64,000 nucleotides of DNA from positions 2,016,001 through 2,080,000 of the forward strand of contig OZ243961.1 of NCBI GenBank assembly GCA_965214605.1, in the 5' to 3' direction. Positions 12,153 to 61,252 of the stretch are shown one piece after another. The position numbers and the translations under genes were made by a program. The stretch comes from an uncultured Candidatus Binatia bacterium. GTDB taxonomy: Bacteria; Desulfobacterota; Binatia; Bin18. Under the pieces are notes generated by a model. The model did not search any database and had not been told where the DNA came from. It saw only the letters and a program-made list of their open reading frames with translations. Every line of letters starts with the position of its first letter. Position 1 is the stretch's first letter.

Positions 12153-12178
12153 AGCCGTTCTCTCATGCTTGGATATAG

Positions 12179-46720: not shown

Positions 46721-46805
46721 CAGCGGAATTACCGCGTTTTCAACGATCTCACAATAGATCACTTGAGCGGTATCAACCTCAATTTCCGGTGAGAACAATG
46801 CCAGG
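46721..46805 (+). pseudogene. N-terminal fragment of an AAA/ABC-type ATPase
   Basis: RNYRVFNDLTIDHLSGINL/ISGENNA (frameshifted, broken Walker A). Confidence 0.4.
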
Positions 46806-46946
46806 CTAGGCGGCAGGGTTGCTCTCGTCCCATCTGGGCCGGGGGGTGCTGCCGTGCCCCAGCGCCTTGCGCCCGGCGGGCCGGGCCCGCGACGGCGCGG
46901 GTGCTAGCTGGCTTTCGCCGCCAGGGCGCAGATCAAGGCCGGGGTT

Positions 46947-47437
46947 ATGGTGAGGGGGGTCCGCTGGGAGCAGGCCGATGCGGTGGCCGCGGTTGCGGCT
47001 AACGGGAGGAAATGGCTGGCGGGGCTGCGGGCTGCGGCGCTGATTGCGGTGAGGTCAGATACGCTGTTGCGGGTGTCAGAGGTGGAAGCCCTGGACGTAG
47101 CGGACGTGGATATGGAAGCGCGGACGGTGACGATCCGGCGCGGGAAGACGGATCAGGAGGACCGGGCGGGATGTACCTGGCGACGCTGGGCCGTGTACAG
47201 GCCTGGCTGGACGCGACGGGTAGGAGGGCCGGGGCGCTGTTGCGGGCGGTGACGACAAGCGGGCCGGGGCGGAGGCGGCGGGGCCGGGCGGGATCTGCGC
47301 CGGCGGATTACGGCCCGGGTGCCGGCAGGCGGAAGTGGGCGGCGCTGGCGTCTGCCGGCACCTCGGTGGCGGCGAGGCCGACGGCAGGCCGCTGGTCCGC
47401 CCCGCAGATGCCCAGGCTGGACGCCCGCCATCAGTGA
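46947..47437 (+). pseudogene. Tyrosine recombinase remnant (left island border)
   Basis: LRAAALIAVRSDTLLRVSEVEALDVADVD..TVTIRRGKTDQE (box I Arg and Lys motif), then frameshifts. Confidence 0.75.
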
Positions 47438-47467
47438 GCCAAGCGGAGGGCGGCGGGATCTGCGGTC

Positions 47468-48640
47468 TCAGGAATAGCTGGAGCGAACGCTTGTCAGGGA
47501 GGCAAGCGTCTCAACAACGAGGGTCGCCGCGCGCTCGATTTCTGCGTCGGTCGTGAAGCGGCCGAAGCTGAAGCGAGTGGAAGCCTCGATTGCTGCTGCC
47601 CCGAGACCGAGGGCGCGGAGGACATGGGACGGCTCAGGGATGCCCGAGGTGCAGGCCGCGCCGGTAGACGCGGCGAGGCGGGGTTGGAGAGAGCCGAGCA
47701 GGTCCTGGGCACTGAACCCGGCAAAGCGCAGATTGGCATTGCCGGGGTGGCGGTGGCCCCTGGGAGGCCCGTTGACGGCGACGGAAAATCGACTGCTGTG
47801 CAGCAGCCGTATGAAGGCATCGCGCTGCCGTGCCAGCCGTTTGCGCTCTGCGGCGCCTTCCGGCGTGCGAATGATCTCGGTCGCGGCCGCCATGCCGACA
47901 CAAAGCGCTAACGGGACGGTGCCGGAACGCAGTCCATTCTGCTGCCCACCGCCGTAGATCAAGGGTTCGATGCGCTCTTGCACGTCACGGCGAATGTAGA
48001 GTGCGCCGATCCCCTGCGGCCCATACACCTTGTGACCGGACAGACAGATCAGGTCGGCATGGACAGCAAGCTCGCTCACGTCTATGGCGCACGGTGCCTG
48101 GGCTGCGTCACAATGGAACACGGCACCGTGCGGAGCGAGCAGTGCGGCAATACGGGGAATGTCTTGAATGGTGCCGACCTCGTTGTTAACGGCCATGACT
48201 GACACGACAAGCACTGTATCGTCGAGTCGTTCTGCAAGCGCATCCAAGTTGATAAAACCTTGGCCGTCCACCGGGATGCGCTCTACTCTGAAGCCTTCGC
48301 GCTCTGCGAGCGACCGGGCGGCAGTCAGAACGCATTTGTGCTCGATAGCGCTGACCAGAATGCGCCGTCGCCCTGTGGGTGCCCGTCGCGCCAGGCCGAG
48401 CAGTGCCAGGTTATTCGCTTCGGTAGCGCCGGAGGTAAAAATCATCTCGTCGGTGTCGGCACCAATCAGCGCCGCCACGCATGACGCCGCCTCACGGACC
48501 GCCTCAGCCGCACGCCAGCCTATGATGTGATCGCTCGAATGGGGGTTGCCGAACGCTTCGCGCCAGTATGGCGCCATCTTTTCCACAACACGCGGATCGA
48601 CGGGCGTCGTCGCCTGGTAGTCGGAGTAGATGGTGTTCAT
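47468..48640 (-). CDS. sspA: Cysteine desulfurase (SspA/DndA-type)
   Basis: DYQATTP, FTSGATEANN, AVNNEVGT, SGHKVYGPQG, STGAACTSG; divergent from sspB. Confidence 0.88.
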   Translation of the reverse strand: MNTIYSDYQATTPVDPRVVEKMAPYWREAFGNPHSSDHIIGWRAAEAVREAASCVAALIGADTDEMIFTSGATEANNLALLGLARRAPTGRRRILVSAIEHKCVLTAARSLAEREGFRVERIPVDGQGFINLDALAERLDDTVLVVSVMAVNNEVGTIQDIPRIAALLAPHGAVFHCDAAQAPCAIDVSELAVHADLICLSGHKVYGPQGIGALYIRRDVQERIEPLIYGGGQQNGLRSGTVPLALCVGMAAATEIIRTPEGAAERKRLARQRDAFIRLLHSSRFSVAVNGPPRGHRHPGNANLRFAGFSAQDLLGSLQPRLAASTGAACTSGIPEPSHVLRALGLGAAAIEASTRFSFGRFTTDAEIERAATLVVETLASLTSVRSSYS

Positions 48641-48731
48641 AATAGTCCTTTCGGCCCGAACTCGTACCTAGTAGACAGTACCCCACTCTCTTGGATATTG
48701 TCCATGGAACCGTTCCTTCGGATAAAAAGCC

Positions 48732-49685
48732 ATGTCCCGAGGCCCCTTATACCAAAACGCCTATCGCCCGCAGCTGTCGGGACATGAGACGTTTCCGCTC
48801 CGCTATGGCTGGCTGAAAAAGGCTTTTGAGGCGGTTCAGGCGAGCAAAGACCAGGGGCACAACAAGTCTATTTTCTCGGGCGAAGACGCCATCGCCCGGT
48901 TCGGCCTCGGCAAGAACATGGTTTCCTCCATGCGTCATTGGGCCGCGGCGGCGGGTGTCATTGAGGACAGTAGGGTGGACCGTCCCACCACTCTTGGACG
49001 GTCCCTGTTTGGTGCAGACGGACTCGACCCCTATATGGAAGACCCAGCTACGTCGTGGCTGGTCCATTGGCAGCTGTGCGGCCGTCCGAACAAGACTACC
49101 TACTTTTGGGCCTTCAGCCATTACCCAGCCCTGTCCTTCGAGCGCGAAACTTTGGTCAAAGCCCTTAACAAGCTCGCCAAGGAGCGCGATTGGAGTCGGG
49201 CGGCCGAGGCCACCATCAGAAGAGACGTCATCTGTTTCGTGCGTACTTATGTTGCGCAGCGTTCATCAAGACAAGCCAGCCAGGAAGACGCCCTAGAGTC
49301 CCCTTTGACCGAGCTTGGTCTGATTAAACGGGTGGGCAGGAGCGAGAGGTTCAGATTTGTCCGAGGGCAGAAGCCGTCTCTCGGTCCCGGCGTGTTCTGC
49401 TATGCGGTGACGGACTTCTGGGCTCGGTTTTCCAAAACCGCCGAGACGCTCTCCTTCGAGACCCTGGCTCACGAGCCCGGGTCGCCCGGTCGGGTCTTTC
49501 TGCTGGACGAAAACGATGTGGTAGATATGCTTGCAGGCCTGGAAGAGGTGAGTGAAGGTATCTACACATGGTCGGAGACGGCTGGTCTGAGACAGCTCAT
49601 CCGCAAGTGCGCATTGTCCGTCGAGGGTGCGCTTGACTTCATCAAGCTGGACTACGCTGCAAATGGCACGAGGAACGCCGCGTAA
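48732..49685 (+). CDS. sspB: DUF4007 family protein, SspB nickase
   Basis: SGHETFPLRYGWLKK, GLGKNMVSSMRHW, DPYMED...WLVHW, ETAGLRQL. Confidence 0.9.
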   Translation: MSRGPLYQNAYRPQLSGHETFPLRYGWLKKAFEAVQASKDQGHNKSIFSGEDAIARFGLGKNMVSSMRHWAAAAGVIEDSRVDRPTTLGRSLFGADGLDPYMEDPATSWLVHWQLCGRPNKTTYFWAFSHYPALSFERETLVKALNKLAKERDWSRAAEATIRRDVICFVRTYVAQRSSRQASQEDALESPLTELGLIKRVGRSERFRFVRGQKPSLGPGVFCYAVTDFWARFSKTAETLSFETLAHEPGSPGRVFLLDENDVVDMLAGLEEVSEGIYTWSETAGLRQLIRKCALSVEGALDFIKLDYAANGTRNAA

Positions 49686-52600
49686 TGGCCTTGGTTGATC
49701 GTGTCCATATCGCCCGACGCTTCCAGCGTGCGATCCGTATCGACACAGACCTTGCCGACTCAGCAGCTCTGCAGGGGTTCATCTGCCCGCCATCCTCCGC
49801 CAATATCCTCAAGACCATGGCGCGCCACGTTGCCGAGAATGGTCAAGGTGCCTTTACCTGGACTGGCCCTTATGGCAGCGGCAAATCAAGCTTGGCCGTG
49901 GCTTTCAGTGCCCTCCTCAACGGGGACGACGCTCTGAGGGACTATGCGGCCTCGGTTCTCGGCGAAAGGACGGCTGCTGCTGTCTGGGACGCGCTGCCGA
50001 CCCGCAACAAGGGCTGGCGCGTTCTGCCCGTTGTCGGTCGGCGCGACCGCCCAGCCCAGGTGCTTGGCGAAGCCATAGCGGCAGCCGGACTTTTGGCCGG
50101 TAAGGCTCCCCCCCCCCCCCCCAATTCTGGGAGCGAACAGCACACGCTGGAATGCCTCCAAAATCTCGCAGCACGGTATCCACGTGCCAGCGGTGGATTG
50201 TTGGTATTCATCGACGAGATGGGCAAGTTTCTGGAGGCAGCCGCTTACGACGGGACCGATATCTACTTCTTTCAGCAGCTTGCCGAGCTAGCTTCGCGCA
50301 GCAACAAGCGGCTCATCGTCGTCGGTATTCTCCATCAGGCGTTTGAAGAGTACGCCCATCGCTTGGCGCACGAGATGCGTGACGAGTGGGCGAAGATTCA
50401 GGGCCGGTTTGTGGACCTCGCTGTCAACATTAGCGGGGACGAACAGATTGCTCTTCTGAGCCGTGCTATCAAGAGCGACCGTGGGCCGGAGAAGCCGAGC
50501 CCCCTGGCCGAAGGCGTAGCCGCGCTGCGCAGACAGACGTCTCCACCCCTGGCGCAAATACTGGAAGACTGTTGGCCACTTCATCCCATAGTGGCCTGTC
50601 TGCTGGGCCCTCTGTCGCGGCGCCGATTTGGCCAGAACCAACGCAGCATCTTCGGGTTTCTCAATTCCACCGAACCGCAGGGCTTTCGAGACTTTCTGCG
50701 CTCCGCAGGTGACAGCGATCTCTATGCCCCCGACCGCCTGTGGGACTATTTGCGCATCAATCTGGAATCTTCCATCCTGTCCTCACCCGACGGCCACCGC
50801 TGGGCCTTGGCAGCGGATGTCCTGGAACGGTGTGAAGCCGTGGGTGGTGAGGAATTGCATCTGAGGCTGCTCAAGGCCATCGCGTTGGTGGATTTGCTGA
50901 AAGACCGCTCCGGCTTAGTCGCAAACCTTGATCTCCTGAAACATGCGTTGCCCGACTGTGGCTCGGAAGAGATCGGACAGGCCCTGGCAAAGCTGCAAGA
51001 CCAGGCGCTGATTATCTTTCGCAAGTTTAACAACGCCTATGCCGTCTTTGAGGGCAGTGACTTCGACATTGAGCACGCGGTAGAGCAGGCTTTGACGACC
51101 ATCAGCGAGGTAGACTTTGCCAGGCTCAACGCCCTTGCCGATCTGCAACCCATTGTGGCCAAGCGCCATTACCATGCCACAGGCACGCTACGGTGGTTTG
51201 ACGTAGCTCTTCTGCCATTAGTCGCAGTCGAACAGGCTGCGGCCAACTACACTCCTCAGCACGGCGCCGTCGGGGTCTTCTTCCTCGCGATTCCGACCCA
51301 GGGCGAAGGAGACCAGAAGATTGAACATATATGCCGCCGTGCGCTAGAGGGGTCTCAGGACTGGGACATTGTGGTTGGCTTGCCGCAGGACGCTTGGGAC
51401 ATCACGTCTCTTGCGCGGGAGCTGCTGGCCCTGGAGCAGGTCAGCGACGAGACACCTGAATTGCAAGGCGACCAAGTTGCGCGGCGCGAGGTTGAAGCCC
51501 GCATCGTGTTGCTCCAAGGGCGGCTGGAAAGCGAACTGACCCGCGCGTCCAACAACGCGCTCTGGTATCGGAGACACCACCGTGCCGAGCCGCTTACACG
51601 GGCTGAGCTTAACAGCCTGGCATCTGAATTGGCAGACGCGCGCTTTAAGAAATCGCCGCGCTTACATAACGAGCTTTTGAACCGCAGCAAACCGTCGAGG
51701 AATGGGGCGGCCGCGCGGAATACGTTGCTGCGGAGAATGGTCCTCAACGAAGGCGAAGCGCGCCTTGGTATTGAGGGCTTTCCCGCTGAGGGCGGGCTGT
51801 TCGCATCGCTGCTAGAGGCGACCGGGCTGTACCGAAGAACGGTTCAGGGCTGGACCTTTGTCGCGCCCACGGCCAATGACGAAGATACGCGCAACCTTGG
51901 GCCGGCTTGGCAAGCGGCAACGAAGCTTCTGGAAAACAATGCGGACCGCACGGTATCAGCCGCCGAGGTATACGATACCTGGCGTCGGGCGCCGTTCGGT
52001 ATCAAAGACGGGCTGTTACCGGTACTGATGGTAGCATTCATCCTGTCGCACCGTCGCGATCTGGCCTTCTATCGTCAGGGCATCTTTCAGGCGCGTATGT
52101 CTGATCTGGACATGGATTACCTCGTCAAAGACCCGGCCGACATTCAGCTACGCTGGATGGACCTTTCGGATGCGTCGCGTCGGCTTCTTTCCGACATGGC
52201 AGCCATCGTTCGCGAGCTGGACGAGGAAAATGCGTTGACTAACCTGGAGCCCATTGATGTGGCCAGAGGGTTGGTGGCGATCTATGACCGGCTGCCACCG
52301 TGGGTGTCCCGCACGCAGCAGCTTTCCGCTAATGCGAAACAGGTCCGGCAGTTATTCAAGCAGGCCAACGACCCGAACAAGCTGATTTTTGACGACATCC
52401 CCAACCTGCTGGGCGGCGGGACCGCTATCCACGAAGGCGACGCCCTGTGTCGAATCGTAGAGCAGGTGCGCGAGGGACTGAGAGAACTGCGCGACGCCTA
52501 CCCCTCAAGGCTATACCGTCTGCGGGAAACGCTGCTGGCCGAGCTGGAAGTACCAAATGCCTCGCCCCCAATGCTGGCTGAACTACACGACCGTGCTGAG

Positions 52601-53083
52601 AACGTCCGTCAACTAGGCGGCGATCACCGCTTGGAAGCCTTCATCGTCCGACTTGGGCAGTTTCAGGGCAGCAATGAAGAGATGGAGAGCCTAGCCAGTA
52701 TGGCGACCAATAAGCCGGCCCGAAACTGGGTGGACGCTGATATTGACCGGGCAGCGGTTGAGTTGGCGCAAATGGCGCAGCAATTCATTCGCGCGGAAGT
52801 CTTCGCCCATGTCAAGGGACGGCCGGACAAACGACACGCCATGGCCGTAGTGGTGAGTATGGACGGCCGACCGACACCGGTCCATGACGAGTTTGACATC
52901 ACCGACCTGGAACGGGGAAAGGTAGACACACTGATCGACCAGGTAGATGCCGCTCTCAATCACAGCGGCGAAAAACGGCGGAACATCATCCTGGCCGCTC
53001 TGGCCGAGCTGAGCGCCCGGTATCTCAGGGCTGCAGCGGATACCCCGGCCAAGAGCCTGGGCAAGAAGTGGGAGGCGTCGTGA
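49685..53083 (+). CDS. sspC: SspC-type large ATPase
   Basis: RFQRAIRIDTD, Walker A GPYGSGKS, Walker B FIDEMGKFLE, EWAKIQGRF, WPLHP, FGQNQRSIF; lies between DUF4007 and PAPS reductase genes. Confidence 0.88.
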   Translation: MALVDRVHIARRFQRAIRIDTDLADSAALQGFICPPSSANILKTMARHVAENGQGAFTWTGPYGSGKSSLAVAFSALLNGDDALRDYAASVLGERTAAAVWDALPTRNKGWRVLPVVGRRDRPAQVLGEAIAAAGLLAGKAPPPPPNSGSEQHTLECLQNLAARYPRASGGLLVFIDEMGKFLEAAAYDGTDIYFFQQLAELASRSNKRLIVVGILHQAFEEYAHRLAHEMRDEWAKIQGRFVDLAVNISGDEQIALLSRAIKSDRGPEKPSPLAEGVAALRRQTSPPLAQILEDCWPLHPIVACLLGPLSRRRFGQNQRSIFGFLNSTEPQGFRDFLRSAGDSDLYAPDRLWDYLRINLESSILSSPDGHRWALAADVLERCEAVGGEELHLRLLKAIALVDLLKDRSGLVANLDLLKHALPDCGSEEIGQALAKLQDQALIIFRKFNNAYAVFEGSDFDIEHAVEQALTTISEVDFARLNALADLQPIVAKRHYHATGTLRWFDVALLPLVAVEQAAANYTPQHGAVGVFFLAIPTQGEGDQKIEHICRRALEGSQDWDIVVGLPQDAWDITSLARELLALEQVSDETPELQGDQVARREVEARIVLLQGRLESELTRASNNALWYRRHHRAEPLTRAELNSLASELADARFKKSPRLHNELLNRSKPSRNGAAARNTLLRRMVLNEGEARLGIEGFPAEGGLFASLLEATGLYRRTVQGWTFVAPTANDEDTRNLGPAWQAATKLLENNADRTVSAAEVYDTWRRAPFGIKDGLLPVLMVAFILSHRRDLAFYRQGIFQARMSDLDMDYLVKDPADIQLRWMDLSDASRRLLSDMAAIVRELDEENALTNLEPIDVARGLVAIYDRLPPWVSRTQQLSANAKQVRQLFKQANDPNKLIFDDIPNLLGGGTAIHEGDALCRIVEQVREGLRELRDAYPSRLYRLRETLLAELEVPNASPPMLAELHDRAENVRQLGGDHRLEAFIVRLGQFQGSNEEMESLASMATNKPARNWVDADIDRAAVELAQMAQQFIRAEVFAHVKGRPDKRHAMAVVVSMDGRPTPVHDEFDITDLERGKVDTLIDQVDAALNHSGEKRRNIILAALAELSARYLRAAADTPAKSLGKKWEAS
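50108..50122 (+). repeat. C15 homopolymer inside sspC (in frame, Pro5)
   Basis: GCT-C15-AAT. Confidence 0.9.
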
Positions 53084-53094
53084 GGAGGGCGGAG

Positions 53095-53922: not shown

Positions 53923-56051
53923 CAAGATTGACCCCATCTTCAGCAACCGAAAAATCCTCGAACGCTGCACAATTGGCTCCCTGGGGCCGCTCCCCAACGC
54001 CTCTCCTGCCGTGTTGGTATCGTGAGATGCTCTCCGAGTTCCGGCTCCCTAAAGCAGTGAGGAGGGCCAATTCAGCGGTTGCGACAGTCGGCGAGCTCAA
54101 TACGTTCTGGAAGGAAGCACGGTCACCGCTTGACCATAAGGGCCTCCTTTCTCTGGTGGAGCTTGTTGGCCGCCATCGTCCTCCGCAGGACTATGTCGTC
54201 ATTCCTGCAGAGATTGATCACCGTGAGATCGCCCAGTATCCGCTGCGGACACGAACGGCCAATATCCTCCGCCGAGAGGGCTTGCTTGAGGGGCATAGCG
54301 TCCTCTCGGTGGGTGAATTGCTGTCACTTAGGGGCTTCGGTATTCTCTCTCTCCTGGATATCATGTGCGTTGCTGAACTCGCGCTGACAGGACGAGTCTC
54401 ACCGTTTGCCGCCCCTAGAGCTGAGAGCATCGACGGTGAAGAACCAAGCCCGCAGTTTGCCACCCCTAGAGCTGAGAGCATCGACGGCGAAGAACCAAAG
54501 CCGGAGACGAGTGCTTGGAGCAGTGCAGTCGAATTATTTAAGCCGCTGCTCGCCGCTGCCCGCGAGTTCTACGGAGCTGGAACCGTGGGCGATGCATTGC
54601 GCTTGGACCTCTCTGGGCTCGCCGCAACGATCGGAGTTGCGCCGGCTCTCGAGTCCCTCCCAATCCAGGATCTGACAACTCGCCGCATATCCAACACTGT
54701 GACCGAACGGCTTGCATCGCTGCTGGCATCAATGTCGGCAACGCGGAAGCTGATTCTCGAACAGCGAATCTTCGTGCCCAGTCCCCGTACGCTCCAGGAG
54801 CTGGCAGAACAGATCGGAGTCACAAGAGAACGTGTAAGGCAGCTCGAGGTACGAGTGTTGGACACCGTCGAGGACGCTGTTGGATCCGAGATCAGCATTC
54901 TCGCAACCCTCCTTATCGAGCAGCTAGATCCTCTCATCACATCTGCCGAATTCGAACGTTTGGTCGCCGATGTGTTCGCCGATGGCTCGCCGATGGAACC
55001 AGCGAGCCATCTAGCCTGTCGGATGCTCAAATCCCGGCTCAATTACTCGTGTGCCGCTGGTATCTGTTTCAACGAGGCTGCAACTGCCGTCGTTGCGGCA
55101 CTACGGGAGAGGGCTGGCGAGGTTGCCGACGATGTGGGCCTGATTGACGAGGAAGCCTTGTGTGATCCTTTCCTAGAAGAGTGGAACGGCTACATTTCGC
55201 AACTTATTGAGCTATGTGAGCTTCATAGGATCGGGGGTCGTCTCGCGCTAAGAGACACCAGTAAAGCACGAGTCAAAGCTGCGCTTCTCAATATTGGACA
55301 AGCAGCTACAAAAGAGGAGATAGCGGCAGTCTGCGGGCTTGATCCTCCCCGGGTCGGCGGCCACCTTTCCGTGATCCCTACAGTGGTCAGGGTGGACAAG
55401 ACCCGTTGGGGGCTCGCCGAATGGACCGACGACGCATACCAAGGCATCCCGGCCGAGATCATTCAGCGGATCAACGAAGACGGAGGGACCACCCCTCTTC
55501 AGAGGCTCCTTGATGAGCTGCCGAGACTATTCCAAGTGAAGGAATCCAGCGTCCGAGCTTATGTCGGTGCGCCACAGTTCACACTCTCCGACGGTTACGT
55601 CAGTTTAGCCAACGAGTCGTCAATCACCCTCCGCGATCTCGACGATGTCATCGATGGTCGTGACGCGTCCGGTAACCCATATTGGACGTTTCTCGTTGAG
55701 AACCGTTACCTTGATGGACATAGTCTTGTGGGCTTCCCGCCGGAGCTGGCCCGGGAACTTGGCTGTGAGCCCAACGATAAGACACAGGCACTCGTGACCT
55801 ATCCGGAAGGCAGCAGCGCACTGTCTGTTGTCTGGCGGCTCGCTTCGCTTACGGGTGCCAGCCTGGGACATCTCGCTGATCCGCTCCGACGACTCGGGGT
55901 GAGCGGTGGAGATCGCGTTTGCCTGGTCATCAAAGGTCCTGGTGTCATCGACCTGCGCCGGGAGAGCATAACGGTGTCGGTGGAGGAAAGCTCCGACACG
56001 GCGGCGGATTCTTTGCTTGCACGCATGAAGAACCGCCGGAGGGTGATATAA
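53919..56051 (+). CDS. Multidomain protein: RNAP alphaCTD-like HhH + sigma70 region-4-like HTH + further putative HTHs
   Basis: LRTRTANILRREG..ELLSLRGFGILSLLDI; ILEQRIF..RTLQELAEQIGVTRERVRQLE; ATG overlaps the sspD stop (ATGA). Confidence 0.75.
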   Translation: MTRLTPSSATEKSSNAAQLAPWGRSPTPLLPCWYREMLSEFRLPKAVRRANSAVATVGELNTFWKEARSPLDHKGLLSLVELVGRHRPPQDYVVIPAEIDHREIAQYPLRTRTANILRREGLLEGHSVLSVGELLSLRGFGILSLLDIMCVAELALTGRVSPFAAPRAESIDGEEPSPQFATPRAESIDGEEPKPETSAWSSAVELFKPLLAAAREFYGAGTVGDALRLDLSGLAATIGVAPALESLPIQDLTTRRISNTVTERLASLLASMSATRKLILEQRIFVPSPRTLQELAEQIGVTRERVRQLEVRVLDTVEDAVGSEISILATLLIEQLDPLITSAEFERLVADVFADGSPMEPASHLACRMLKSRLNYSCAAGICFNEAATAVVAALRERAGEVADDVGLIDEEALCDPFLEEWNGYISQLIELCELHRIGGRLALRDTSKARVKAALLNIGQAATKEEIAAVCGLDPPRVGGHLSVIPTVVRVDKTRWGLAEWTDDAYQGIPAEIIQRINEDGGTTPLQRLLDELPRLFQVKESSVRAYVGAPQFTLSDGYVSLANESSITLRDLDDVIDGRDASGNPYWTFLVENRYLDGHSLVGFPPELARELGCEPNDKTQALVTYPEGSSALSVVWRLASLTGASLGHLADPLRRLGVSGGDRVCLVIKGPGVIDLRRESITVSVEESSDTAADSLLARMKNRRRVI
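54404..54498 (+). repeat. 51-bp in-frame tandem duplication
   Basis: GTTTGCC[G/A]CCCCTAGAGCTGAGAGCATCGACGG[T/C]GAAGAACCAA at 54404 and 54455; encodes FAAPRAESIDGEEP / FATPRAESIDGEEP. Confidence 0.9.
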
Positions 56052-56052
56052 C

Positions 56053-58302
56053 GTGCTCGCCGACGAACCTACACTTCGCCCAGGGCTTTATCGGTTACCT
56101 GACCATCCAGTCGGACCGAGCGTTTTCATCCCTGCGTTTCGATCCGCCACATCCATCCGGGGTGCGTTTGGCTGGTTCACGTCCGGCTGGATAGCAAGAC
56201 TAGCTCCTGGGCTTGCCGAGTACCTCAATCGCCACGATACAACGCCAATTGACTTCACCGTTGCACCGGCTCTCTTCGCCGCAGAGCGAGCAGTCATCGA
56301 ACAGGCTTATAGCATGTCGGAAGAAGAGGCAGCACGACGGGTCGCTGACGTGTTCGTTGACGGCCGAGTTAAGGCCTCAGCACTTGGTCGCCACGCTTTG
56401 GATTGCCTGGCCTGGATGGTTGCCACTAGACGGCTGCATCTTCGCATCGCCGTCCCAAAGGCAGCAGCAAACTACCATCCCAAGATTTGGCTATTTGACG
56501 ATGGCACCCACCAAGTCCTTGCTCGCGGCTCCGGCAATGCTACCGGGCGTGGGGTCGCCTCCGGTGTCGAACACCTCGATGTTGATGTCACATGGTTCGA
56601 CTACAGTCGCGCTCGTGTTCGAGACGGCGTTGAAATCCTCAACGATTGGGCACAAGGACGTAGCGACGGAATTGAGCGCGTAGTCGAACTCCCTGAAGCC
56701 CTGGAACAGAACATCGTTTACACCGCTCCAGAGATCGCACCGAGTCAAGCCGATTACATCAGGGCAGCGAGCGAGGACGGGAACCCGGCGTGGGCGGTCG
56801 ATCGGACCGAATCGTTACGGAAACGGTTTGCGCCAATGCGCTCTGCAGAACTCCCTCGCCTAACGATTCCCAGGGGATTAGAGTGGCAACAGGGTCCCTA
56901 CGCCCATCAAAACGAGGCGGTTACGGCCTGGGAATCAGATCCAAATCCCGAACAGGGTACGATCTCCATGGCAACTGGAGCAGGCAAGACGCTCACGGCA
57001 CTGATATGCGCTACTCGTGTACAAGATCGCCTCTCTGATAAGCCCCTACTCATTATTATCTCGGCACCATCCATCCCGCTCGTCGTTCAGTGGCGAGAGG
57101 AGGTTAAGAGATTCGGAATTCATGCCACTGTCCCGAGCCTCGAACCTAACACCGACTTCGCTATAACCAACCTGTTTCGAGGTCTCGTCTCAGGCGGAAC
57201 CCATATAGCAATCGTAACCAATAACCTCCTCTGCTCGCCGGCATTTCAATCCACCGTGGCGCTCAAGATCAGACGCGCCAACTCTTCGGTCCAGACAATG
57301 TTCATCGCTGACGAGGCCCACACACTCGGCGCAGACGGATTCATCTCGAACAAGCCGGACTTCTTCGAGCGACGACTTGCCCTTTCAGCTACCCCCGAAC
57401 GTCAGCACGATCCTGACGGTACCGAAGAGATATTCGATTTCTTCGGGCCACCAGTCTACGAGTTTGGACTCGAACGAGCCATTGGATTCTGCCTAGCTCC
57501 ATATAACTACTACGTCCACGCCGCCACTCTCGATGGCGACGAGCTGGACGAGTTCGAGGCCCTCACTGGCCGGATTGGAGCAGCTTTTGGTCGAGACCTC
57601 GACGATGACGACGATACCCTAACTAGCTTGCTGATCGCGAGGAGAAGGATCATCGAAACTGCCCAAGCCAAGCTGTTACTCCTCCGGACAGTGCTCGAAC
57701 AACGCGGCCCACGTTCGCTGGAACAGACGCTGATCTACGCCTCCGCCAAGAATCCTGAGCAATTCGATAACATTGCCGCGACGCTTACCGATCTCGACAT
57801 TAGGTGGGCTCCCGTCACCCAAGATACAACTGCCAACCGACCATTACTCGCTCAGACCCTTGAGACATTTAGTGAGGGTGGCTACCAGGTCCTGTTAGCC
57901 AAGAAAGTCCTTGATGAGGGCATCGATATCCCTAGCATCAGGGAAGCATTCATTGTTGCTTCATCCACAGTTAAACGAGAATGGGTCCAGCGACGAGGCC
58001 GCGTGCTCCGACGCCATCCCGAAAAGCCCTGGGCGATCATTCACGACTTCCTCGCGCTACCACCGACACAAATGCTCCAACCTGAGGAAGAGACAAACAT
58101 GAAGAAGATCATCCGGGTCGAGTTGGACCGCGCCTACTCCTTCGCTGCACATGCGAGGAACGCTGTTGGTGATGAAGGAGTGCTCTCCGATCTCCAGAGG
58201 ATTAGAACCGCCTACTGGCCCGAGGAAGAACGTTCGCCGATCCTGCGGCAAGCCGGTGACAGCATCATCGCTGCTGCAACGCCACGAGGAAAACCATGGT
58301 AA
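56053..58302 (+). CDS. PLD-nuclease + SF2 (DEAH) helicase, PbeA-like
   Basis: GWFTS; YHPKIWLFDD..GSGNAT (HxK motif); MATGAGKT; DEAH; LSATPER; DEGIDIP; QRRGRVLR. Confidence 0.85.
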   Translation: MLADEPTLRPGLYRLPDHPVGPSVFIPAFRSATSIRGAFGWFTSGWIARLAPGLAEYLNRHDTTPIDFTVAPALFAAERAVIEQAYSMSEEEAARRVADVFVDGRVKASALGRHALDCLAWMVATRRLHLRIAVPKAAANYHPKIWLFDDGTHQVLARGSGNATGRGVASGVEHLDVDVTWFDYSRARVRDGVEILNDWAQGRSDGIERVVELPEALEQNIVYTAPEIAPSQADYIRAASEDGNPAWAVDRTESLRKRFAPMRSAELPRLTIPRGLEWQQGPYAHQNEAVTAWESDPNPEQGTISMATGAGKTLTALICATRVQDRLSDKPLLIIISAPSIPLVVQWREEVKRFGIHATVPSLEPNTDFAITNLFRGLVSGGTHIAIVTNNLLCSPAFQSTVALKIRRANSSVQTMFIADEAHTLGADGFISNKPDFFERRLALSATPERQHDPDGTEEIFDFFGPPVYEFGLERAIGFCLAPYNYYVHAATLDGDELDEFEALTGRIGAAFGRDLDDDDDTLTSLLIARRRIIETAQAKLLLLRTVLEQRGPRSLEQTLIYASAKNPEQFDNIAATLTDLDIRWAPVTQDTTANRPLLAQTLETFSEGGYQVLLAKKVLDEGIDIPSIREAFIVASSTVKREWVQRRGRVLRRHPEKPWAIIHDFLALPPTQMLQPEEETNMKKIIRVELDRAYSFAAHARNAVGDEGVLSDLQRIRTAYWPEEERSPILRQAGDSIIAAATPRGKPW

Positions 58303-58517
58303 ACAATTACGATCGTATCTACGCCGAAATTGAGAAGGAAGCACTGCGTTCTTCTCAGGAGCAGAACATTGACTCGGATGTGCTTGTTCGCTTAGTCATG
58401 GAAATCGTGAACCTTGAGGACCAGCACCACACCAAGAATGTTTCGCGCATCAAACAACGCATCGAACAGATGATCCTCACCACAGCGAGGGACCAAATGA
58501 TGCGCGAGGGATTGTAG
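58296..58517 (+). CDS. Small helical protein, PbeB-like position
   Basis: 73 aa, overlaps the helicase stop, RBS GAGG; LVMEIVNLEDQH..RIKQRIEQMI. Confidence 0.75.
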   Translation: MVNNYDRIYAEIEKEALRSSQEQNIDSDVLVRLVMEIVNLEDQHHTKNVSRIKQRIEQMILTTARDQMMREGL

Positions 58518-58519
58518 CG

Positions 58520-60754
58520 ATGTTGAGATTCTGTCGAATTGAGATCAACAACTTCGTCTGCTTCAAAGACATCGTGATCGAACCCTCCATCGATCCAGAG
58601 AGACGACTCACTGTACTAAGAGCGGAAAACGGTTCGGGAAAAACTACTCTTCTCCGCGCGCTCCGATGGGGTATGTATGGCGAAAAGGGCCTACCCGGAG
58701 ATTCGACTCGGTTCTCACTCCACCCTTCCTGGTGGCACCCCAACGGCGACGGTATCAAGACAGAGGTTAAGATTGAGTTCGAGACCGACGGCTCCACCCG
58801 GTACTCCACAGAGGGCAGCCCCATCACCACCGTCTATCATCTCGTACGGTCTGTCACTACGATTGGCAGGCCGACAGCCAAGGATGATGAACCCGACTTC
58901 CGCCGTCTCAACGAACATACACAACTAATGGTCAAGGAGAGTGGTGGGACATGGACTCGACATACTGTGGGAGTTGACATCGTCGTCGAACAGCTTCTCC
59001 CGTGGAATCTCCGCGATTTCTTCGTGATGGATGCTGACGAAGCGACTGACTTCGTCGGCGGCGGCGAGAACAAGGTCATGAACCGTCAGGACGTTATCGA
59101 CAAGACAACCGCAGCCGTGCACAGCCTTCTAGGTCTCGATGTCTTCAAGAAGGCATCGGAGCGGGTGACGGCTCTCGCCCGATCATTCGGTTCGCAGGCC
59201 ACAAAAGCTATTGGCGACACAGACCTTGACGCGCTCTGGGCGGAGCTTGAGCAGCTCAGGGCGGAGGAGGCTGACCTCACGAAGAAGATCGTGGAACAGC
59301 AAACCCAGAAGAGAGAGCTAGAAGACCAGCTGCGACGGCGGCAGGACGCCCTCGAAACCGAACTCAAAGGCATTGGTGCCGCCGAGGAGCTGAGGAGCCG
59401 CCTCACAGCGAACCGAGATCGGTCTGCGCAAGCCACTAAGGCACGGAAAGCTACGCTCAGCCACCTGGCCGGCACCCTCGAATCGACCGATCTTCTCGCC
59501 TCGCTCGCGCGTAGCGAGCTCGCCACGGCCTACCGCCTCCTGCGGCCGCTCTATGAACAAGGCCACATTCCCCTCACACATCTCAACTTCGTACGAGACC
59601 TCCTCGAATCCGGCACTTGCGTTTGCGGTCAAGACCTCTCCAACGATGACGTGCCTCGCCGACATGTGGAAGAGCGGATTGCTGAATCCGCAACACAGGA
59701 GGACCGCGCCAACTACCTCGGTCAGCTCCACGATGCGGCGAAGTCTCTTAGGGACCAAGCGGTGGCCCCACAATGGGAAACGCGGAGCCGACGACTCGCG
59801 GCGGACCTCGCTGAGATCGATAAGGAGATCGCCAATCTCGCGCTTGAAAAGCGAGATATCGACAACAAACTCGACGCCCTTGATGCAGATAAAATAGAGA
59901 TCATCCGCGACGAAATCGAGGCGCTAAAGACCCAAGTGGGGAGCCTGCAAAGCACCATCGCCATCAACCAGAGTCGGCATCCAGCCCTCCTCAGCACCAT
60001 CGATTCCCACCAGAAGCAGATCGACCAGCGGCACCGTAACGAACGAGCTGCTGCTGACAAACGGGCGGCGGAGGGCATGGCGCATCTCGTCGTCACAATC
60101 CTTGAACAGGCCTACGGTACTATCCAGGCAGAACAGGTCGGCGATCTCTCTCAGCGAATGAATCGCCTCTTCACTCAGATGGCAGCAAACGTCTCGGACG
60201 AAGACTACGAAGAGATACCACGCGACAAGGCGACGCTCAAAATGATCGCCGAAGTCGGCCTTCGGCCTGTCGACGACAAGTCCGACAACTACGAGATCTA
60301 CGCGTTCAACCGCCGAGGCCGTTCCATGCCTCCAACCGAGATCAATGGTGCTTCCCGCCGAGTGCTCGCATTGTCATTCGTGCTCGCGCTGTGCGCTGAG
60401 TCTCGGACTCATGCCCCCTTGATTGCAGACTCGCTACTCAACTTCATGTCAGGCACGGTACGACGCAACACGCTCCGTATCACCGCAGAGAATTCCAACC
60501 AACCGATCCTTCTGCTGACCGGAGCTGACCTCCAAGCGCCGTCAGAAGCTGAGCTTGTGTCTCGGTACGCCGGCGCTACCTACACTCTCACCGGCCAGTG
60601 GGATGCAATCGCTGCTGGTTCAGGAGGAGACGTCGTGCACTGGACCGAACAACGTCCGGTGTCACTCGTTTGCCCATGCGGACCCCGTCAATATTGCGAT
60701 ATCTGCGAACGGACCGGACAAGCTGAGTTACCGGGATGGAGCAGGAGGACCTAG
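58520..60754 (+). CDS. SMC/Rad50-like ABC ATPase (DndD/PbeC-like, CxC hook)
   Basis: IEINNF, Walker A AENGSGKTT, FFVMDAD, coiled coils around CVCG, signature NGASRR, Walker B LIADS, C-terminal CPC..CDIC. Confidence 0.85.
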   Translation: MLRFCRIEINNFVCFKDIVIEPSIDPERRLTVLRAENGSGKTTLLRALRWGMYGEKGLPGDSTRFSLHPSWWHPNGDGIKTEVKIEFETDGSTRYSTEGSPITTVYHLVRSVTTIGRPTAKDDEPDFRRLNEHTQLMVKESGGTWTRHTVGVDIVVEQLLPWNLRDFFVMDADEATDFVGGGENKVMNRQDVIDKTTAAVHSLLGLDVFKKASERVTALARSFGSQATKAIGDTDLDALWAELEQLRAEEADLTKKIVEQQTQKRELEDQLRRRQDALETELKGIGAAEELRSRLTANRDRSAQATKARKATLSHLAGTLESTDLLASLARSELATAYRLLRPLYEQGHIPLTHLNFVRDLLESGTCVCGQDLSNDDVPRRHVEERIAESATQEDRANYLGQLHDAAKSLRDQAVAPQWETRSRRLAADLAEIDKEIANLALEKRDIDNKLDALDADKIEIIRDEIEALKTQVGSLQSTIAINQSRHPALLSTIDSHQKQIDQRHRNERAAADKRAAEGMAHLVVTILEQAYGTIQAEQVGDLSQRMNRLFTQMAANVSDEDYEEIPRDKATLKMIAEVGLRPVDDKSDNYEIYAFNRRGRSMPPTEINGASRRVLALSFVLALCAESRTHAPLIADSLLNFMSGTVRRNTLRITAENSNQPILLLTGADLQAPSEAELVSRYAGATYTLTGQWDAIAAGSGGDVVHWTEQRPVSLVCPCGPRQYCDICERTGQAELPGWSRRT

Positions 60755-60766
60755 AGGCAAGAGTCC

Positions 60767-61252
60767 ATGAACTACTTCACCACTTTATTGTCTTCTCAAA
60801 CCCACACCCTTCGCTTTCCGAGCCAGGATAAGGACGCCATCGAACGGTACGTGCTCCAGCATCAGAAAGGGACTGTTAGCCAGGAGCACGCTCCCTTCCG
60901 GCGCCAGGTGGACTTCTGGGCTTTCGCTATTGCCACCGCTCTCGCGCGTAGAGTACCGCCGCTCAAAAAACCCTCTAGTCGCTGGGGACGGAAGTTCGCC
61001 GACACCAGATCCGTACAGATGCCGGATGGGCTGTGCGAAATGCTCGCCGTCATCGCTCTGACCACGCTGGGCCACGATCATGAAGGTATAGACGACCCCT
61101 CGCAGATCATTGAGCTGGGCAACCGGCTCGCAGGGGCTGGATGTCCAGCACTCCTCAAGCAGCTTAGCAACCCGGATCTGCGTACCACCGTTCTCGACAA
61201 AGCCCTGGAGTTCGCAAGGCTTCTACAATCCGAAGCAAACACCGCGGCCTAA
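60767..61252 (+). CDS. Hypothetical protein, PbeD-like position
   Basis: 161 aa, 12 bp after the ATPase; PFRRQVDFWAFA, NRLAGAG. Confidence 0.75.
   Translation: MNYFTTLLSSQTHTLRFPSQDKDAIERYVLQHQKGTVSQEHAPFRRQVDFWAFAIATALARRVPPLKKPSSRWGRKFADTRSVQMPDGLCEMLAVIALTTLGHDHEGIDDPSQIIELGNRLAGAGCPALLKQLSNPDLRTTVLDKALEFARLLQSEANTAA

What the first reader, a model, noticed from the sequence alone, without database searches (positions are those of the whole stretch)
47468..61252. SspABCD phosphorothioation coupled to a non-canonical five-gene effector (HTH protein + PbeABCD-like)
Seen: a divergent cysteine desulfurase, then eight same-strand genes with overlaps or gaps of at most 12 bp: DUF4007, ATPase, PAPS reductase, alphaCTD/sigma-r4 protein, PLD-helicase, 73-aa protein, CxC SMC-like ATPase, 161-aa protein. 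Established: SspABCD makes single-strand PT marks and pairs with SspE (DUF262/DUF1524) or SspFGH, whereas PbeABCD (PLD-helicase, small, ATPase, small) was described with DndCDEA in haloarchaea. No SspE-like or DndC/DndE gene is visible in this window. Inference: a hybrid Ssp-Pbe antiviral system with an extra DNA-binding component. All nine ORFs are intact amid decayed flanks, implying selection or recent arrival.
Basis: partly seen in the sequence, partly recalled or inferred. Interest (0 to 1): 0.9.

Follow-up and report, generated by a model that had tools for sequence, protein, structure and literature searches.

The report
Ssp phosphorothioation operon with Pbe-type restriction arm
A DNA sulfur-marking gene set (SspABCD) is fused in one operon to a Pbe-type nuclease-helicase/ATPase module plus a large, unnamed multi-domain DNA-binding protein, and the same gene order recurs in unrelated bacteria, so it looks like an undescribed variant of a known antiviral system.

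Summary
Window 47468-61252 carries full-length SspA, B, C and D, then a 716-aa protein (P5) with no defence-family match, then PbeA (PLD nuclease plus SF2 helicase), a 73-aa protein, PbeC (CxC ABC ATPase) and a 161-aa protein whose model matches DndE best.

The eight same-strand genes overlap or lie at most 12 nt apart.

The order recurs. All nine genes are colinear in two metagenome contigs and one Acidimicrobiia genome, and partly in four more contigs, although SspC is only about 27% identical.

P5 has an alpha-CTD-like part, sigma region 4, winged helices and a B3-like DNA-binding barrel, and no enzymatic domain was found. P5 relatives also sit before PbeA next to Dnd genes, next to a third sulfur module, or with no modification genes. 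P5 therefore belongs to the Pbe arm, not to Ssp.

A complete SspFGH lies about 1 Mb away, and the window's SspD is the genome's only one. This writer probably serves two restriction arms.

Function is inferred throughout. I found no printed description of this pairing, so I file it as a new variant of a known kind.

The parts
46947..47252 (+). Remnant of a tyrosine recombinase (integrase) gene next to the 3' end of sspA, lying in a 65% GC stretch
   Evidence: Pfam Phage_integrase 9.8e-7, matching only profile positions 20-66 of 172. GC is 0.653 in 46001-48000. Sequence read.
47468..48640 (-). sspA: cysteine desulfurase, transcribed divergently from the other eight genes
   Evidence: PADLOC SspA 4e-128 and DndA 1.6e-125. 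Pfam Aminotran_5 1.7e-76. In L065, L066 and L098 the homolog is on the same strand as sspBCD.
48641..48731 (.). 91-nt divergent intergenic region between sspA and sspB; likely promoter region
   Evidence: Coordinates. One promoter-like match at 48672-48701, but the number of matches in the region does not exceed the shuffles, so this is position-based inference only.
48732..49685 (+). sspB: DUF4007 DNA-binding component of the PT writer
   Evidence: PADLOC SspB 5.4e-107. Pfam DUF4007 9.4e-88.
49685..53083 (+). sspC: BrxC-like P-loop ATPase, 1132 aa
   Evidence: PADLOC SspC E=0, 2-1044 of 1045 positions. Walker A GPYGSGKS at aa 61.
53068..53922 (+). sspD: PAPS-reductase-like sulfur-transfer enzyme; the only SspD in the genome
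   Evidence: PADLOC SspD 3.3e-138, 1-277 of 277 positions. PP-loop SGGRDS at aa 18. In the own-genome search the only other hit is 2.8e-6.
53901..56051 (+). P5: 716-aa multi-domain DNA-binding protein in which no enzymatic domain was found; conserved fifth gene of the restriction arm
   Evidence: No PADLOC hit. 145 homolog clusters. AF2 model with pLDDT 80. Sits between SspD and PbeA in 5 other loci (L064, L065, L066, L070, L098).
54195..54389 (+). P5 aa 99-163: helix-hairpin-helix part resembling the RNA polymerase alpha C-terminal domain
   Evidence: Pfam RNA_pol_A_CTD hits 4 of 23 family members, best 2.3e-4, but not the window protein itself. Atlas look-alike clusters carry PF03118 in 14-81% of members. 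Helices at 107-163 in the model.
54678..54884 (+). P5 aa 260-328: sigma-70 region 4 helix-turn-helix
   Evidence: Pfam Sigma70_r4 in 23 of 23 members. Family profile versus PDB: SigB/RpoD/SigA region 4, about 1e-10. VIA Z 8.7, rmsd 3.2, 69 aligned, 29% identity to 8hkc_E.
55665..55976 (+). P5 aa 589-692: B3-like pseudobarrel DNA-binding domain
   Evidence: VIA Z 8.9, rmsd 2.9, 97 aligned to 6c5d_B (LlaJI.R1 N-terminal domain); Z 8.8 to VAL1 and VRN1 B3 domains. Foldseek also lists EcoRII-N 3hqf and BfiI 2c1l/3zi5 at weak E-values.
55992..56048 (+). P5 aa 698-716: conserved basic C-terminal helix (LLxRMKxRRRV) after a disordered linker
   Evidence: A regex hit in the last 25 residues of 76 of 120 family members. 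The tail is absent in L068 (no Pbe downstream) and different in L070 and L072 (distant PbeA).
56053..58302 (+). pbeA: PLD/HKD nuclease fused to an SF2 helicase
   Evidence: PADLOC PbeA 1.3e-151. NCBIfam TIGR04095 6.3e-94, below its cut-off. Pfam ResIII, DEAD and Helicase_C. The HxK...D...GSxN motif at aa 142-162 has H, K, G, S and N invariant in 6 of 6 aligned sequences.
58296..58517 (+). 73-aa protein in the position and of the size of PbeB
   Evidence: No family hit. Homologs 45-50% identical sit in the same slot in L064, L065, L066 and L098. PbeB is 66 aa in the described system (PMC6459918, passage read).
58520..60754 (+). [quoted passage not shown]
   Evidence: PADLOC PbeC 4e-44 and DndD 2.4e-19. 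Walker A is conserved in 8 of 8 aligned loci. The C367-x-C369 pair is conserved in 7 of 8, with a CCSLC variant in L072. A C-terminal CxC...CxxC is present in 6 of 8.
60767..61252 (+). 161-aa protein: PbeD, a DndE-fold partner of PbeC
   Evidence: No sequence-family hit. AF2 model pLDDT 75.6. Best of 48,161 PDB representatives is DndE 7x4e_A (Z 8.1, rmsd 4.0, 112 of 114 residues); DndE 5wtu_A scores Z 6.3. An F-plasmid relaxosome chain (9f0x_E) also scores Z 6.3 at rank 2, and rank 4 scores Z 4.3.

Best explanation
This is one composite phosphorothioate (PT) restriction-modification-like defence operon. SspA, B, C and D write PT marks on the host's own DNA. The five genes that follow (P5, PbeA, a PbeB-like small protein, PbeC, PbeD) form the restriction arm that acts on unmarked incoming DNA. 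Within that arm I infer the following roles. PbeC (CxC ABC ATPase) and PbeD (DndE fold) scan or clamp DNA. PbeA (HKD nuclease plus SF2 helicase) translocates and cuts, or blocks replication. The small protein regulates. P5, in which no catalytic domain was found and which has four kinds of DNA-binding domain, is the target-recognition or adaptor subunit that brings the arm to DNA. The same writer probably also protects the genome from the unlinked SspFGH module. What is shown here: gene identities, intact motifs, tight junctions and recurrent gene order. What is inferred: PT writing, dependence of the arm on PT, and the role of P5.
For: All four Ssp proteins and PbeA/PbeC match PADLOC models at full length, and the catalytic motifs are intact. 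PbeD has a DndE-like fold. The eight genes overlap or are at most 12 nt apart. In 9 close P5 loci from elsewhere, SspD lies directly upstream in 7; of the other two, one contig is too short (L069) and one has another sulfur module (L067). PbeA lies directly downstream in 7; of the other two, one contig ends inside P5 (L071) and one has other genes (L068). All nine genes are colinear in L065, L066 and L098, although SspC is only 27% and SspB 36-39% identical to the window. The P5/PbeA junction is a 4-nt overlap up to about 30 nt in all 8 loci that hold both with P5 upstream. P5 identity to the window tracks PbeA identity (54/69, 42/65, 43/65, 41/64, 35/36, 27/33), while SspD stays at 47-50%. 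P5's B3-like domain is the fold that the restriction proteins LlaJI.R1, EcoRII and BfiI use to bind DNA. Published work (passages read): DndCDEA-PbeABCD protects against a virus, PT-modified virus escapes, and pbeB, pbeC and pbeD are required while pbeA is partly required (PMC6459918). One SspBCD can serve two restriction modules at once, and SspFGH without PT damages the host (PMC8092258). This genome has a full SspFGH but only one SspD.
Against: There is no experiment and no RNA data: no RNA run was listed. The modules are separable. P5-Pbe occurs with Dnd genes (L072, L101), with a different sulfur module (L067) and with no sulfur genes within 9.7 kb (L103). Ssp plus P5 occurs with a DndB-like protein and an SNF2 helicase instead of Pbe (L068). 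In L099, SspD is followed directly by PbeA, with the P5-like gene convergent. Seven of 12 distant P5 relatives have none of the other eight genes nearby. P5 was not found in 400 other genomes of the host's phylum. Rakesh et al. (PMC10853773, section 16 read) argue that CxC systems need not be restriction partners of PT modules at all. P5's role rests on fold resemblance at middling Z (8-9), which the tool warns can be a common arrangement.
Confidence: 0.5

Rival explanations
1. Two independent systems happen to sit side by side in a defence island. SspABCD pairs in trans with the genome's canonical SspFGH. P5-PbeABCD is a self-contained CxC-type system that does not read PT.
For: A full SspFGH lies at G000:C1:3059314-3068080 with no SspBCD beside it, and the window's SspD is the genome's only one. 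SspFGH without PT is toxic (PMC8092258, passages). P5-Pbe occurs without any sulfur genes in L103. 320 of 553 PbeAC lack dndCD within 10 kb (PMC6459918, passage). Rakesh et al. question Pbe as a PT-dependent restriction arm (PMC10853773, section 16). The surroundings look like a mobile element or defence island: an integrase remnant, and downstream ArdC-like, resolvase, DndB-like and E2-E1-JAB genes.
Against: The genes overlap with no intergenic space for separate control. The order SspD-P5-PbeA is kept in 5 other loci whose Ssp proteins have diverged to 27-50% identity, one of them a genome of another class. Chance adjacency would not be kept that long.
Confidence: 0.2
2. P5 is a transcription regulator, not a subunit. 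It would be a sigma- or activator-like protein that switches the downstream restriction genes on, comparable to DndB or BrxR-type regulators (these comparisons are recalled, not tested here).
For: Sigma region 4 is present in 23 of 23 family members, sigma region 3 weakly in 7 of 23, and alpha-CTD in 4 of 23. Region 4 is closest to that of housekeeping sigma factors, about 1e-10. The gene sits at the boundary between the modification and restriction modules in every close locus.
Against: No Sigma70_r2 hit at E<=0.05 in any of 23 members, so it is not a working sigma factor. It is 716 aa with a B3-like domain typical of restriction proteins. It lies in mid-operon with overlapping or 1-nt junctions on both sides, which suggests production together with PbeA rather than autoregulation. 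Its conserved C-terminal tail varies with the type of PbeA.
Confidence: 0.2
3. P5 is a decoy sensor. Its copies of sigma region 4 and alpha-CTD imitate the parts of RNA polymerase that phage take-over proteins bind or modify, and engagement by such a protein releases the PbeA nuclease.
For: P5 combines the two RNA polymerase modules without sigma region 2 or the alpha N-terminal domain. Its region 4 is closest to primary sigma factors. One of the structural matches is sigma-A region 4 bound by phage G1 ORF67 (4g6d). NCBIfam lists a sigma-like protein, MzaA, in another anti-phage system, with a weak hit of 1.6e-4.
Against: There is no direct evidence. The other domains (winged helices, B3-like) point to plain DNA binding. 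That phages target these RNA polymerase parts is recalled knowledge and was not tested here.
Confidence: 0.08

Closest known systems
DndCDEA-PbeABCD of Haloterrigena jeotgali A29 (PMC6459918); the same thing as the CxC ABC ATPase-centred systems of Rakesh, Aravind and Krishnan (PMC10853773)
   Same: It has an HKD-SF2 helicase, a small protein (73 aa here, 66 aa there), a CxC ABC ATPase and a DndE-fold protein (161 aa here, 152 aa there), in the same order and next to a PT-writing module (passages).
   Different: The writer here is SspABCD (AAA+ SspC and DUF4007 SspB), not DndCDEA. A fifth conserved gene, P5, precedes pbeA. The papers I read describe four genes plus, in some cases, methylases and MTaX1, and no sigma-r4/B3 protein.
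SspABCD-SspE (abstract of PMC9646914; passages of PMC8092258)
   Same: The four writer genes are the same families, at full length.
   Different: There is no DUF262/DUF1524 SspE next to it. The genome's five DUF262 genes lie elsewhere and match other PADLOC families better.
SspABCD-SspFGH (PMC8092258)
   Same: The writer genes are the same families. The genome does hold a full SspFGH (SspF 5.7e-221, SspG 8.4e-194, SspH E=0).
   Different: SspFGH lies about 1 Mb away, with a 98.6% identical copy on contig C4, and is not in the operon. The genes downstream of sspD give no SspF/G/H hit.
Restriction proteins with B3-like DNA-recognition domains (LlaJI.R1, EcoRII N-terminal domain, BfiI C-terminal domain)
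   Same: P5 aa 589-692 has this fold (Z 8.9 to 6c5d_B). By its PDB title, the BfiI C-terminal domain is that enzyme's DNA-recognition domain (3zi5). That BfiI's nuclease is PLD-type, like that of PbeA, is recalled, not tested here.
   Different: In P5 the domain sits on a separate protein in which no nuclease domain was found, together with sigma-r4, alpha-CTD-like and winged-helix domains. Sequence identity is only 6-12%.
Sigma-70 family factors, and MzaA of the MZA anti-phage system (NCBIfam NF041931)
   Same: A region 4 helix-turn-helix, 29% identical to sigma-32 region 4 in the structural alignment.
   Different: No region 2 hit. The MzaA hit is weak (1.6e-4, against a cut-off of 800 bits) and covers region 4 only.

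Membership tests
SspABCD PT-modification module | Cysteine desulfurase SspA | tested here: met
   PADLOC SspA 4e-128, 1-372 of 374 positions.
SspABCD PT-modification module | DUF4007 protein SspB | tested here: met
   PADLOC SspB 5.4e-107; Pfam DUF4007 9.4e-88.
SspABCD PT-modification module | Large P-loop ATPase SspC with Walker A | tested here: met
   PADLOC SspC E=0, full length; GPYGSGKS at aa 61.
SspABCD PT-modification module | PAPS-reductase-like SspD with PP-loop | tested here: met
   PADLOC SspD 3.3e-138, 277 of 277 positions; SGGRDS at aa 18.
SspABCD PT-modification module | Single-strand PT marks in genomic DNA | not testable with these tools
   Needs LC-MS/MS or iodine-cleavage mapping.
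PbeABCD / CxC ABC ATPase-centred system | PbeA: HKD nuclease fused to an SF2 helicase | tested here: met
   PADLOC PbeA 1.3e-151; HxK...D...GSxN at aa 142-162; GAGKT and DEAH.
PbeABCD / CxC ABC ATPase-centred system | PbeB: small, fast-evolving protein between pbeA and pbeC | tested here: inconclusive
   A 73-aa ORF in the right slot is conserved at 45-50% identity in 4 loci, but the PADLOC PbeB model gives no hit at E<=0.001.
PbeABCD / CxC ABC ATPase-centred system | PbeC: ABC ATPase with a CxC motif in the coiled-coil | tested here: met
   PADLOC PbeC 4e-44. Walker A is conserved in 8 of 8 loci; CxC in 7 of 8, with a CCSLC variant in L072.
PbeABCD / CxC ABC ATPase-centred system | PbeD: cognate of DndE | tested here: met
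   Fold level only: DndE 7x4e_A is the top hit of 48,161 chains (Z 8.1, 112 of 114 aligned) and 5wtu_A scores Z 6.3. There is no sequence-level match.
PbeABCD / CxC ABC ATPase-centred system | Four-gene cassette next to dndCDEA, as first described | tested here: not met
   Five genes, next to sspABCD. No DndC in the genome.
SspFGH restriction module | SspF, SspG and SspH encoded beside sspBCD | tested here: not met
   No SspF/G/H hit among the nine proteins. A full SspFGH is present elsewhere, at G000:C1:3059314-3068080.
SspE | DUF262 plus DUF1524 protein beside sspBCD | tested here: not met
   None in the cassette. The five DUF262 genes elsewhere match SspE models only over short N-terminal stretches and match Orf5, HEC-05/06, PDC-M55C or NsnA better.
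Sigma-70 family sigma factor (for P5) | Region 2 together with region 4 | tested here: not met
   Region 4 in 23 of 23 members; no Sigma70_r2 at E<=0.05 in any of the 23.
B3 / EcoRII-N / BfiI-C pseudobarrel DNA-binding domain (for the P5 C-terminus) | Seven-stranded pseudobarrel fold | tested here: inconclusive
   VIA Z 8.0-8.9 with 96-102 residues aligned, against several B3 domains and LlaJI.R1. Foldseek E-values are only 6e-3 or weaker. The tool warns that Z near 8 is middling.

The most novel reading that the evidence does not exclude
P5 is an RNA-polymerase look-alike used as bait. It carries free-standing copies of sigma region 4 and the alpha C-terminal domain, the parts that phage take-over proteins grab. 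When a phage protein engages them, P5 licenses the PbeA nuclease-helicase on DNA that lacks the Ssp sulfur mark. The system would then combine an epigenetic self-mark with decoy sensing of infection.
Probability: 0.08. Interest if true: 0.9.

Novelty: new variant of a known kind. Interest (0 to 1): 0.62.

Why it matters
Published surveys left most PT genes without partners. 2,211 of 2,678 sspBCD clusters have neither SspE nor SspFGH (PMC8092258), and 320 of 553 pbeAC pairs have no dndCD nearby (PMC6459918). A recurrent Ssp-P5-Pbe operon joins part of those two orphan sets and gives a concrete cassette to test.

It raises a testable question: how does a Pbe arm, known so far with double-strand Dnd marks, read the single-strand marks of Ssp? 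It also raises the question of whether one writer can serve a cis arm (P5-Pbe) and a trans arm (SspFGH).

P5 is a sizeable family without a name: 145 clusters, and several Atlas clusters of 61-125 members. It sits at the junction of modification and restriction modules of several kinds. It could therefore be a general adaptor in these systems.

Tried and rejected
Of its 59 loci only L004 and L005 (Corynebacterium MAGs) showed a P5 alignment of 120 aa or more, and none showed any of the other eight proteins.
2. The viral-contig scan with A2 matched 141 stretches, and none was confirmed.
3. The plasmid tblastn with P5 gave 7 records at 24-32% identity, none covering 80% of the query. The neighbourhood of the best one (M. 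madagascariense plasmid) has no Ssp or Pbe genes. These are remote relatives only.
4. Complex prediction of PbeA (A4) with P5 aa 587-716 gave no answer: score 0.00 in both runs against a mark of 0.32. This is no evidence for or against binding.
5. The look-up of sequencing runs listed no RNA holder, so nothing can be said on expression.
6. Comparison with the one other genome of the same family (G110) found upstream genes scattered over that genome at 66-76% identity, and nothing for 61.3-64 kb. The island borders could not be set.
7. The promoter and terminator scan gave counts no higher than the shuffles. No tRNA and no Rfam match was found.
8. Sequence-level links of the 161-aa protein to DndE failed: the PDB profile search gave 0 hits at E<=10, and Pfam gave nothing meaningful. 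Only the fold search linked them.
9. Foldseek on both models gave no match at E<=0.001.
10. Literature. None of the terms 'SspABCD-PbeABCD', 'SspBCD-PbeABCD', 'Ssp-Pbe' or 'sspABCD-pbe' occurs in any paper. The 10 papers that hold both 'PbeABCD' and 'SspABCD' were seen as listing and abstract starts. I read passages of PMC10853773, PMC12707154, PMC12914056 and PMC12839542, and none describes the pairing. Krishnan et al. 2020 (PMC7544218), which first described the CxC systems, is not held. The supplementary tables of PMC8092258, PMC6459918 and PMC10853773 are closed. Any of these may list such loci.

Full report
**What is there.**

One search lists nine long ORFs at exactly the coordinates given. 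One lies on the minus strand (47468-48640). Eight follow on the plus strand from 48732 to 61252.

PADLOC names six of them:
- SspA, 4e-128
- SspB, 5.4e-107
- SspC, E=0, covering 2-1044 of 1045 profile positions
- SspD, 3.3e-138, covering 277 of 277 positions
- PbeA, 1.3e-151
- PbeC, 4e-44

Pfam and NCBIfam agree: Aminotran_5, DUF4007, PAPS_reduct, ResIII/DEAD/Helicase_C and AAA_23. TIGR04095, the 'DNA phosphorothioation system restriction enzyme', matches PbeA at 6.3e-94 but below its cut-off.

Three ORFs have no defence-family hit:
- the 716-aa protein between sspD and pbeA, which I call P5
- a 73-aa protein between pbeA and pbeC
- a 161-aa protein after pbeC

The catalytic motifs are intact:
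- PbeA has the PLD motif H142-x-K144...D149...G159-S160-x-N162, plus GAGKT and DEAH.
- PbeC has Walker A and C367-x-C369.
- SspC has Walker A.
- SspD has the PP-loop.

The eight plus-strand genes overlap or are at most 12 nt apart.

**The two small genes.**

The 161-aa protein and five positional homologs were aligned (A3) and folded (pLDDT 75.6, pTM 0.73).
- Against 48,161 PDB representatives, the best match is DndE of Natronorubrum bangense (7x4e_A: Z 8.1, rmsd 4.0, 112 of 114 residues).
- E. coli DndE (5wtu_A) scores Z 6.3.
- An F-plasmid relaxosome chain also scores Z 6.3, and rank 4 drops to Z 4.3.
- No sequence search linked the protein to DndE.

This fits the published statement that PbeD is a divergent DndE cognate (PMC10853773, section 16, read).

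The 73-aa protein has the place and size of PbeB (66 aa in PMC6459918, passage). It is conserved at 45-50% identity in four other loci. The PADLOC PbeB model does not hit it, so membership is inconclusive.

**P5.**

P5 belongs to a real family.
- One search found 145 clusters with E<=0.001 among 8,000 scored candidates, most about 700 aa long and mostly from metagenome assemblies.
- Two cluster mates carry names, one from a Gemmatimonadota MAG and one from Candidatus Poriferisodalis.
- The protein atlas lists look-alike clusters of 61-125 members carrying Sigma70_r4, and in 14-81% of members RNA_pol_A_CTD, in Actinomycetota, Planctomycetota and Pseudomonadota.

The AF2 model (pLDDT 80, pTM 0.42) shows separate domains joined by disordered linkers. 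VIA alignment gives:
- sigma region 4 at aa 260-328 (Z 8.7, 69 aligned, 29% identity to sigma-32)
- a B3-like pseudobarrel at aa 589-692 (Z 8.9, rmsd 2.9, 97 aligned to the N-terminal domain of LlaJI.R1; Z 8.8 to plant B3 domains)
- a winged helix at aa 509-570

Foldseek also lists the EcoRII N-terminal and BfiI C-terminal domains, but none of its matches reaches E<=0.001.

On the 23 aligned members, Pfam finds Sigma70_r4 in 23, Sigma70_r3 in 7 and RNA_pol_A_CTD in 4. It finds no region 2 and no enzymatic domain. The family profile matches region 4 of housekeeping sigma factors at about 1e-10.

P5 is therefore a multi-domain DNA-binding protein and not a sigma factor.

**Is the arrangement conserved?**

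A scan of metagenome contigs with a C-terminal P5 alignment (A2) returned 9 loci. A search of 401 genomes of the class that holds locus L059 (an Ilumatobacteraceae MAG) returned 10 places in 8 genomes. I compared all of them with the nine window proteins by tblastn.

There are nine close P5 loci: L064-L071 and L098.
- SspD lies directly upstream in 7. L069 is too short upstream, and L067 has another module.
- PbeA lies directly downstream in 7. L071 ends inside P5, and L068 has other genes.
- L065, L066 and L098 carry all nine genes in the window's order, with nearly the same gene sizes.
- Even so, SspC is only 26-28% and SspB 36-39% identical to the window's proteins.
- L064 starts inside sspD and then has the remaining five genes.

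There are twelve distant P5 relatives: L072, L099-L107, L004 and L005.
- Four have PbeA and PbeC beside them (L072, L099, L101, L103).
- Two have Ssp genes (L099, L100).
- Two have Dnd genes (L072, L101).
- Seven have none of the eight.

P5 was not found in 400 other genomes of the host's own phylum. The linkage is therefore rare but recurrent, and it crosses large taxonomic distances.

**Which module does P5 belong to?**

Several loci separate the parts.
- L072 is P5-like, PbeA, a 63-aa gene, PbeC, a 178-aa gene, then DndB, DndC and DndD.
- L067 is a PAPS-reductase-like protein, a DndA/SspA-like desulfurase, PDC-M33A and PDC-M33B, then P5 and PbeA.
- L103 is an integrase, an HNH protein, P5-like, PbeA, PbeC and a 156-aa gene. 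It has no desulfurase or PAPS-reductase hit in the 9.7 kb upstream.
- L068 is SspABCD and P5, then a DndB-like protein and an SNF2 helicase instead of Pbe.
- In L099, SspC and SspD run straight into PbeA, PbeC and a 160-aa gene, with a P5-like gene convergent.

Identity to the window also separates them. P5 tracks PbeA (54/69, 42/65, 43/65, 41/64, 35/36, 27/33), while SspD stays at 47-50%. This is a small and related sample, so it is a hint only.

P5's basic C-terminal helix (LLxRMKxRRRV) is present in 76 of 120 family members. It is missing in L068, the locus without Pbe, and different in L070 and L072, where PbeA is distant.

I conclude that P5 is an accessory gene of one branch of Pbe/CxC systems, and that this five-gene arm is combined with different sulfur-writing modules. 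That matches the 'mix and match' picture of PMC10853773. However, the parts of that paper I read list only the HKD-helicase, the small protein, the CxC ATPase, DndE, methylases and MTaX1 as components.

**The rest of the genome.**

- The genome has no DndC.
- Its five DUF262 genes lie far away and match Orf5, HEC-05/06, PDC-M55C or NsnA better than SspE.
- Unexpectedly, it has a complete SspFGH at G000:C1:3059314-3068080, about 1 Mb from the window (SspF 5.7e-221, SspG 8.4e-194, SspH E=0).
- No SspB, C or D lies within the 20 kb fetched upstream or the 10 kb fetched downstream of it.
- A 98.6% identical copy lies on the 14.6-kb contig C4.
- The window's SspD is the only one in the genome.

SspFGH harms cells that lack PT, and one SspBCD can serve two restriction modules (PMC8092258, passages). 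The window's writer therefore most likely also protects against this SspFGH.

**Surroundings.**

- Upstream of sspA lies a fragment of a tyrosine recombinase gene in a 65% GC stretch.
- Further upstream are ordinary metabolic genes.
- The ORFs at 61.3-64 kb have no family hits.
- Beyond the window come an ArdC-like gene, a ParA-like gene, a Schlafen/AlbA_2 gene, a resolvase, a DndB-like gene and an E2-E1-JAB fusion gene.

This looks like a mobile element or defence island. The cassette's GC (56-60%) does not differ from the rest of the window.

**How it most likely works.**

Established for relatives:
- SspABCD writes single-strand PT at CCA sites (abstract of PMC9646914).
- DndCDEA-PbeABCD stops virus DNA replication. 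PT-marked virus escapes, and pbeB, pbeC and pbeD are essential while pbeA is partly needed (PMC6459918).

Inferred here:
- The Ssp marks are the self-label for the P5-Pbe arm.
- PbeC and PbeD scan DNA, PbeA is the motor and nuclease, and the small protein regulates.
- P5 supplies sequence or mark recognition through its B3-like, winged-helix and sigma-r4 domains. It possibly docks through its C-terminal helix.

I put 0.5 on this whole picture. The rivals:
- two independent neighbours, with SspFGH as the true partner (0.2)
- P5 as a transcription regulator (0.2)
- P5 as a decoy of RNA polymerase parts (0.08)

**Novelty.**

All parts except P5 belong to known families. The Ssp-Pbe pairing and the fifth gene are not in anything I could read. 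The searches were made; I read passages of six papers and one full section. Krishnan et al. 2020 and all supplementary tables were out of reach and may list such loci. I file it as a new variant of a known kind, of moderate to good interest.

Noticed in passing
G000:C1:3059314-3068080 (L113 1315-10081) and contig C4 (L114 4758-13500): A complete SspFGH module (620, 508 and 1794 aa; PADLOC 5.7e-221, 8.4e-194, E=0) lies about 1 Mb from the ssp operon, with no SspBCD beside it. A 98.6% identical copy makes up most of the 14.6-kb contig C4; this could be a strain variant, a repeat or an assembly duplicate.
   Followed up: partly
window 46947-47252: A short ORF matches only positions 20-66 of the 172-position Phage_integrase profile. 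It lies in a 65% GC stretch directly beside the 3' end of sspA. In the three other full loci sspA points the same way as sspBCD, so here sspA may have been inverted by a recombination event.
   Followed up: partly
L086 (G000:C1:2077000-2096999), i.e. from just inside the window's end to 17 kb beyond it: Mobile-element and defence genes follow the cassette: ArdC-like anti-restriction protein (3832-4854), ParA-like ATPase, Schlafen/AlbA_2 protein, serine resolvase (10270-10986), a DndB-like protein that lacks the first ~50 profile positions (11471-12310; PADLOC DndB 4e-81), and a 769-aa E2-E1-JAB fusion (14271-16580).
   Followed up: partly
L067 584-8221: A third kind of sulfur module precedes P5-PbeA: an HNH/type IV restriction-like protein, a 517-aa PAPS-reductase-like protein, a DndA/SspA-like desulfurase, then PADLOC candidate-system proteins PDC-M33A and PDC-M33B and a 302-aa protein. 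PDC-M33 may be a PT-type modification system.
   Followed up: no
L068 7802-14505: SspABCD and P5 are followed not by Pbe but by a 161-aa protein, a 473-aa DndB-like protein and an SNF2 helicase resembling ZorD/DpdE. This may be another restriction arm for Ssp. P5 here lacks the conserved C-terminal tail.
   Followed up: partly
L068 8462-8800 and L070 4282-4581: In these two loci the P5 ORF is longer (1070 and 880 aa). It begins with an extra copy of the C-terminal B3-like domain (34-37% identical to window P5 aa 587-699).
   Followed up: no
L098 16696-18732: In the Acidimicrobiia genome, a 678-aa ORF directly after PbeD matches SspB (37%) and then the middle of SspC (26%). This suggests a second, fused or truncated SspB-SspC gene.
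   Followed up: no
G000:C1 at about 0.91, 2.39, 3.13, 3.23 and 4.26 Mb (L073-L077): Five DUF262 (GmrSD_N) genes are scattered in the genome, with best PADLOC matches to Orf5, HEC-05, PDC-M55C and NsnA. This is a defence-rich genome.
   Followed up: partly
Plasmid records H1-H7 (e.g. NZ_AP022611.1 10665-12428): Remote P5 relatives (24-32% identity over the winged-helix and B3-like part) sit on Mycobacterium, Mycolicibacterium, Microbacterium and Nonomuraea replicons. One is annotated 'sigma factor-like helix-turn-helix DNA-binding protein'. The one neighbourhood examined has a MazF toxin and a thermonuclease, but no Ssp or Pbe genes.
   Followed up: partly
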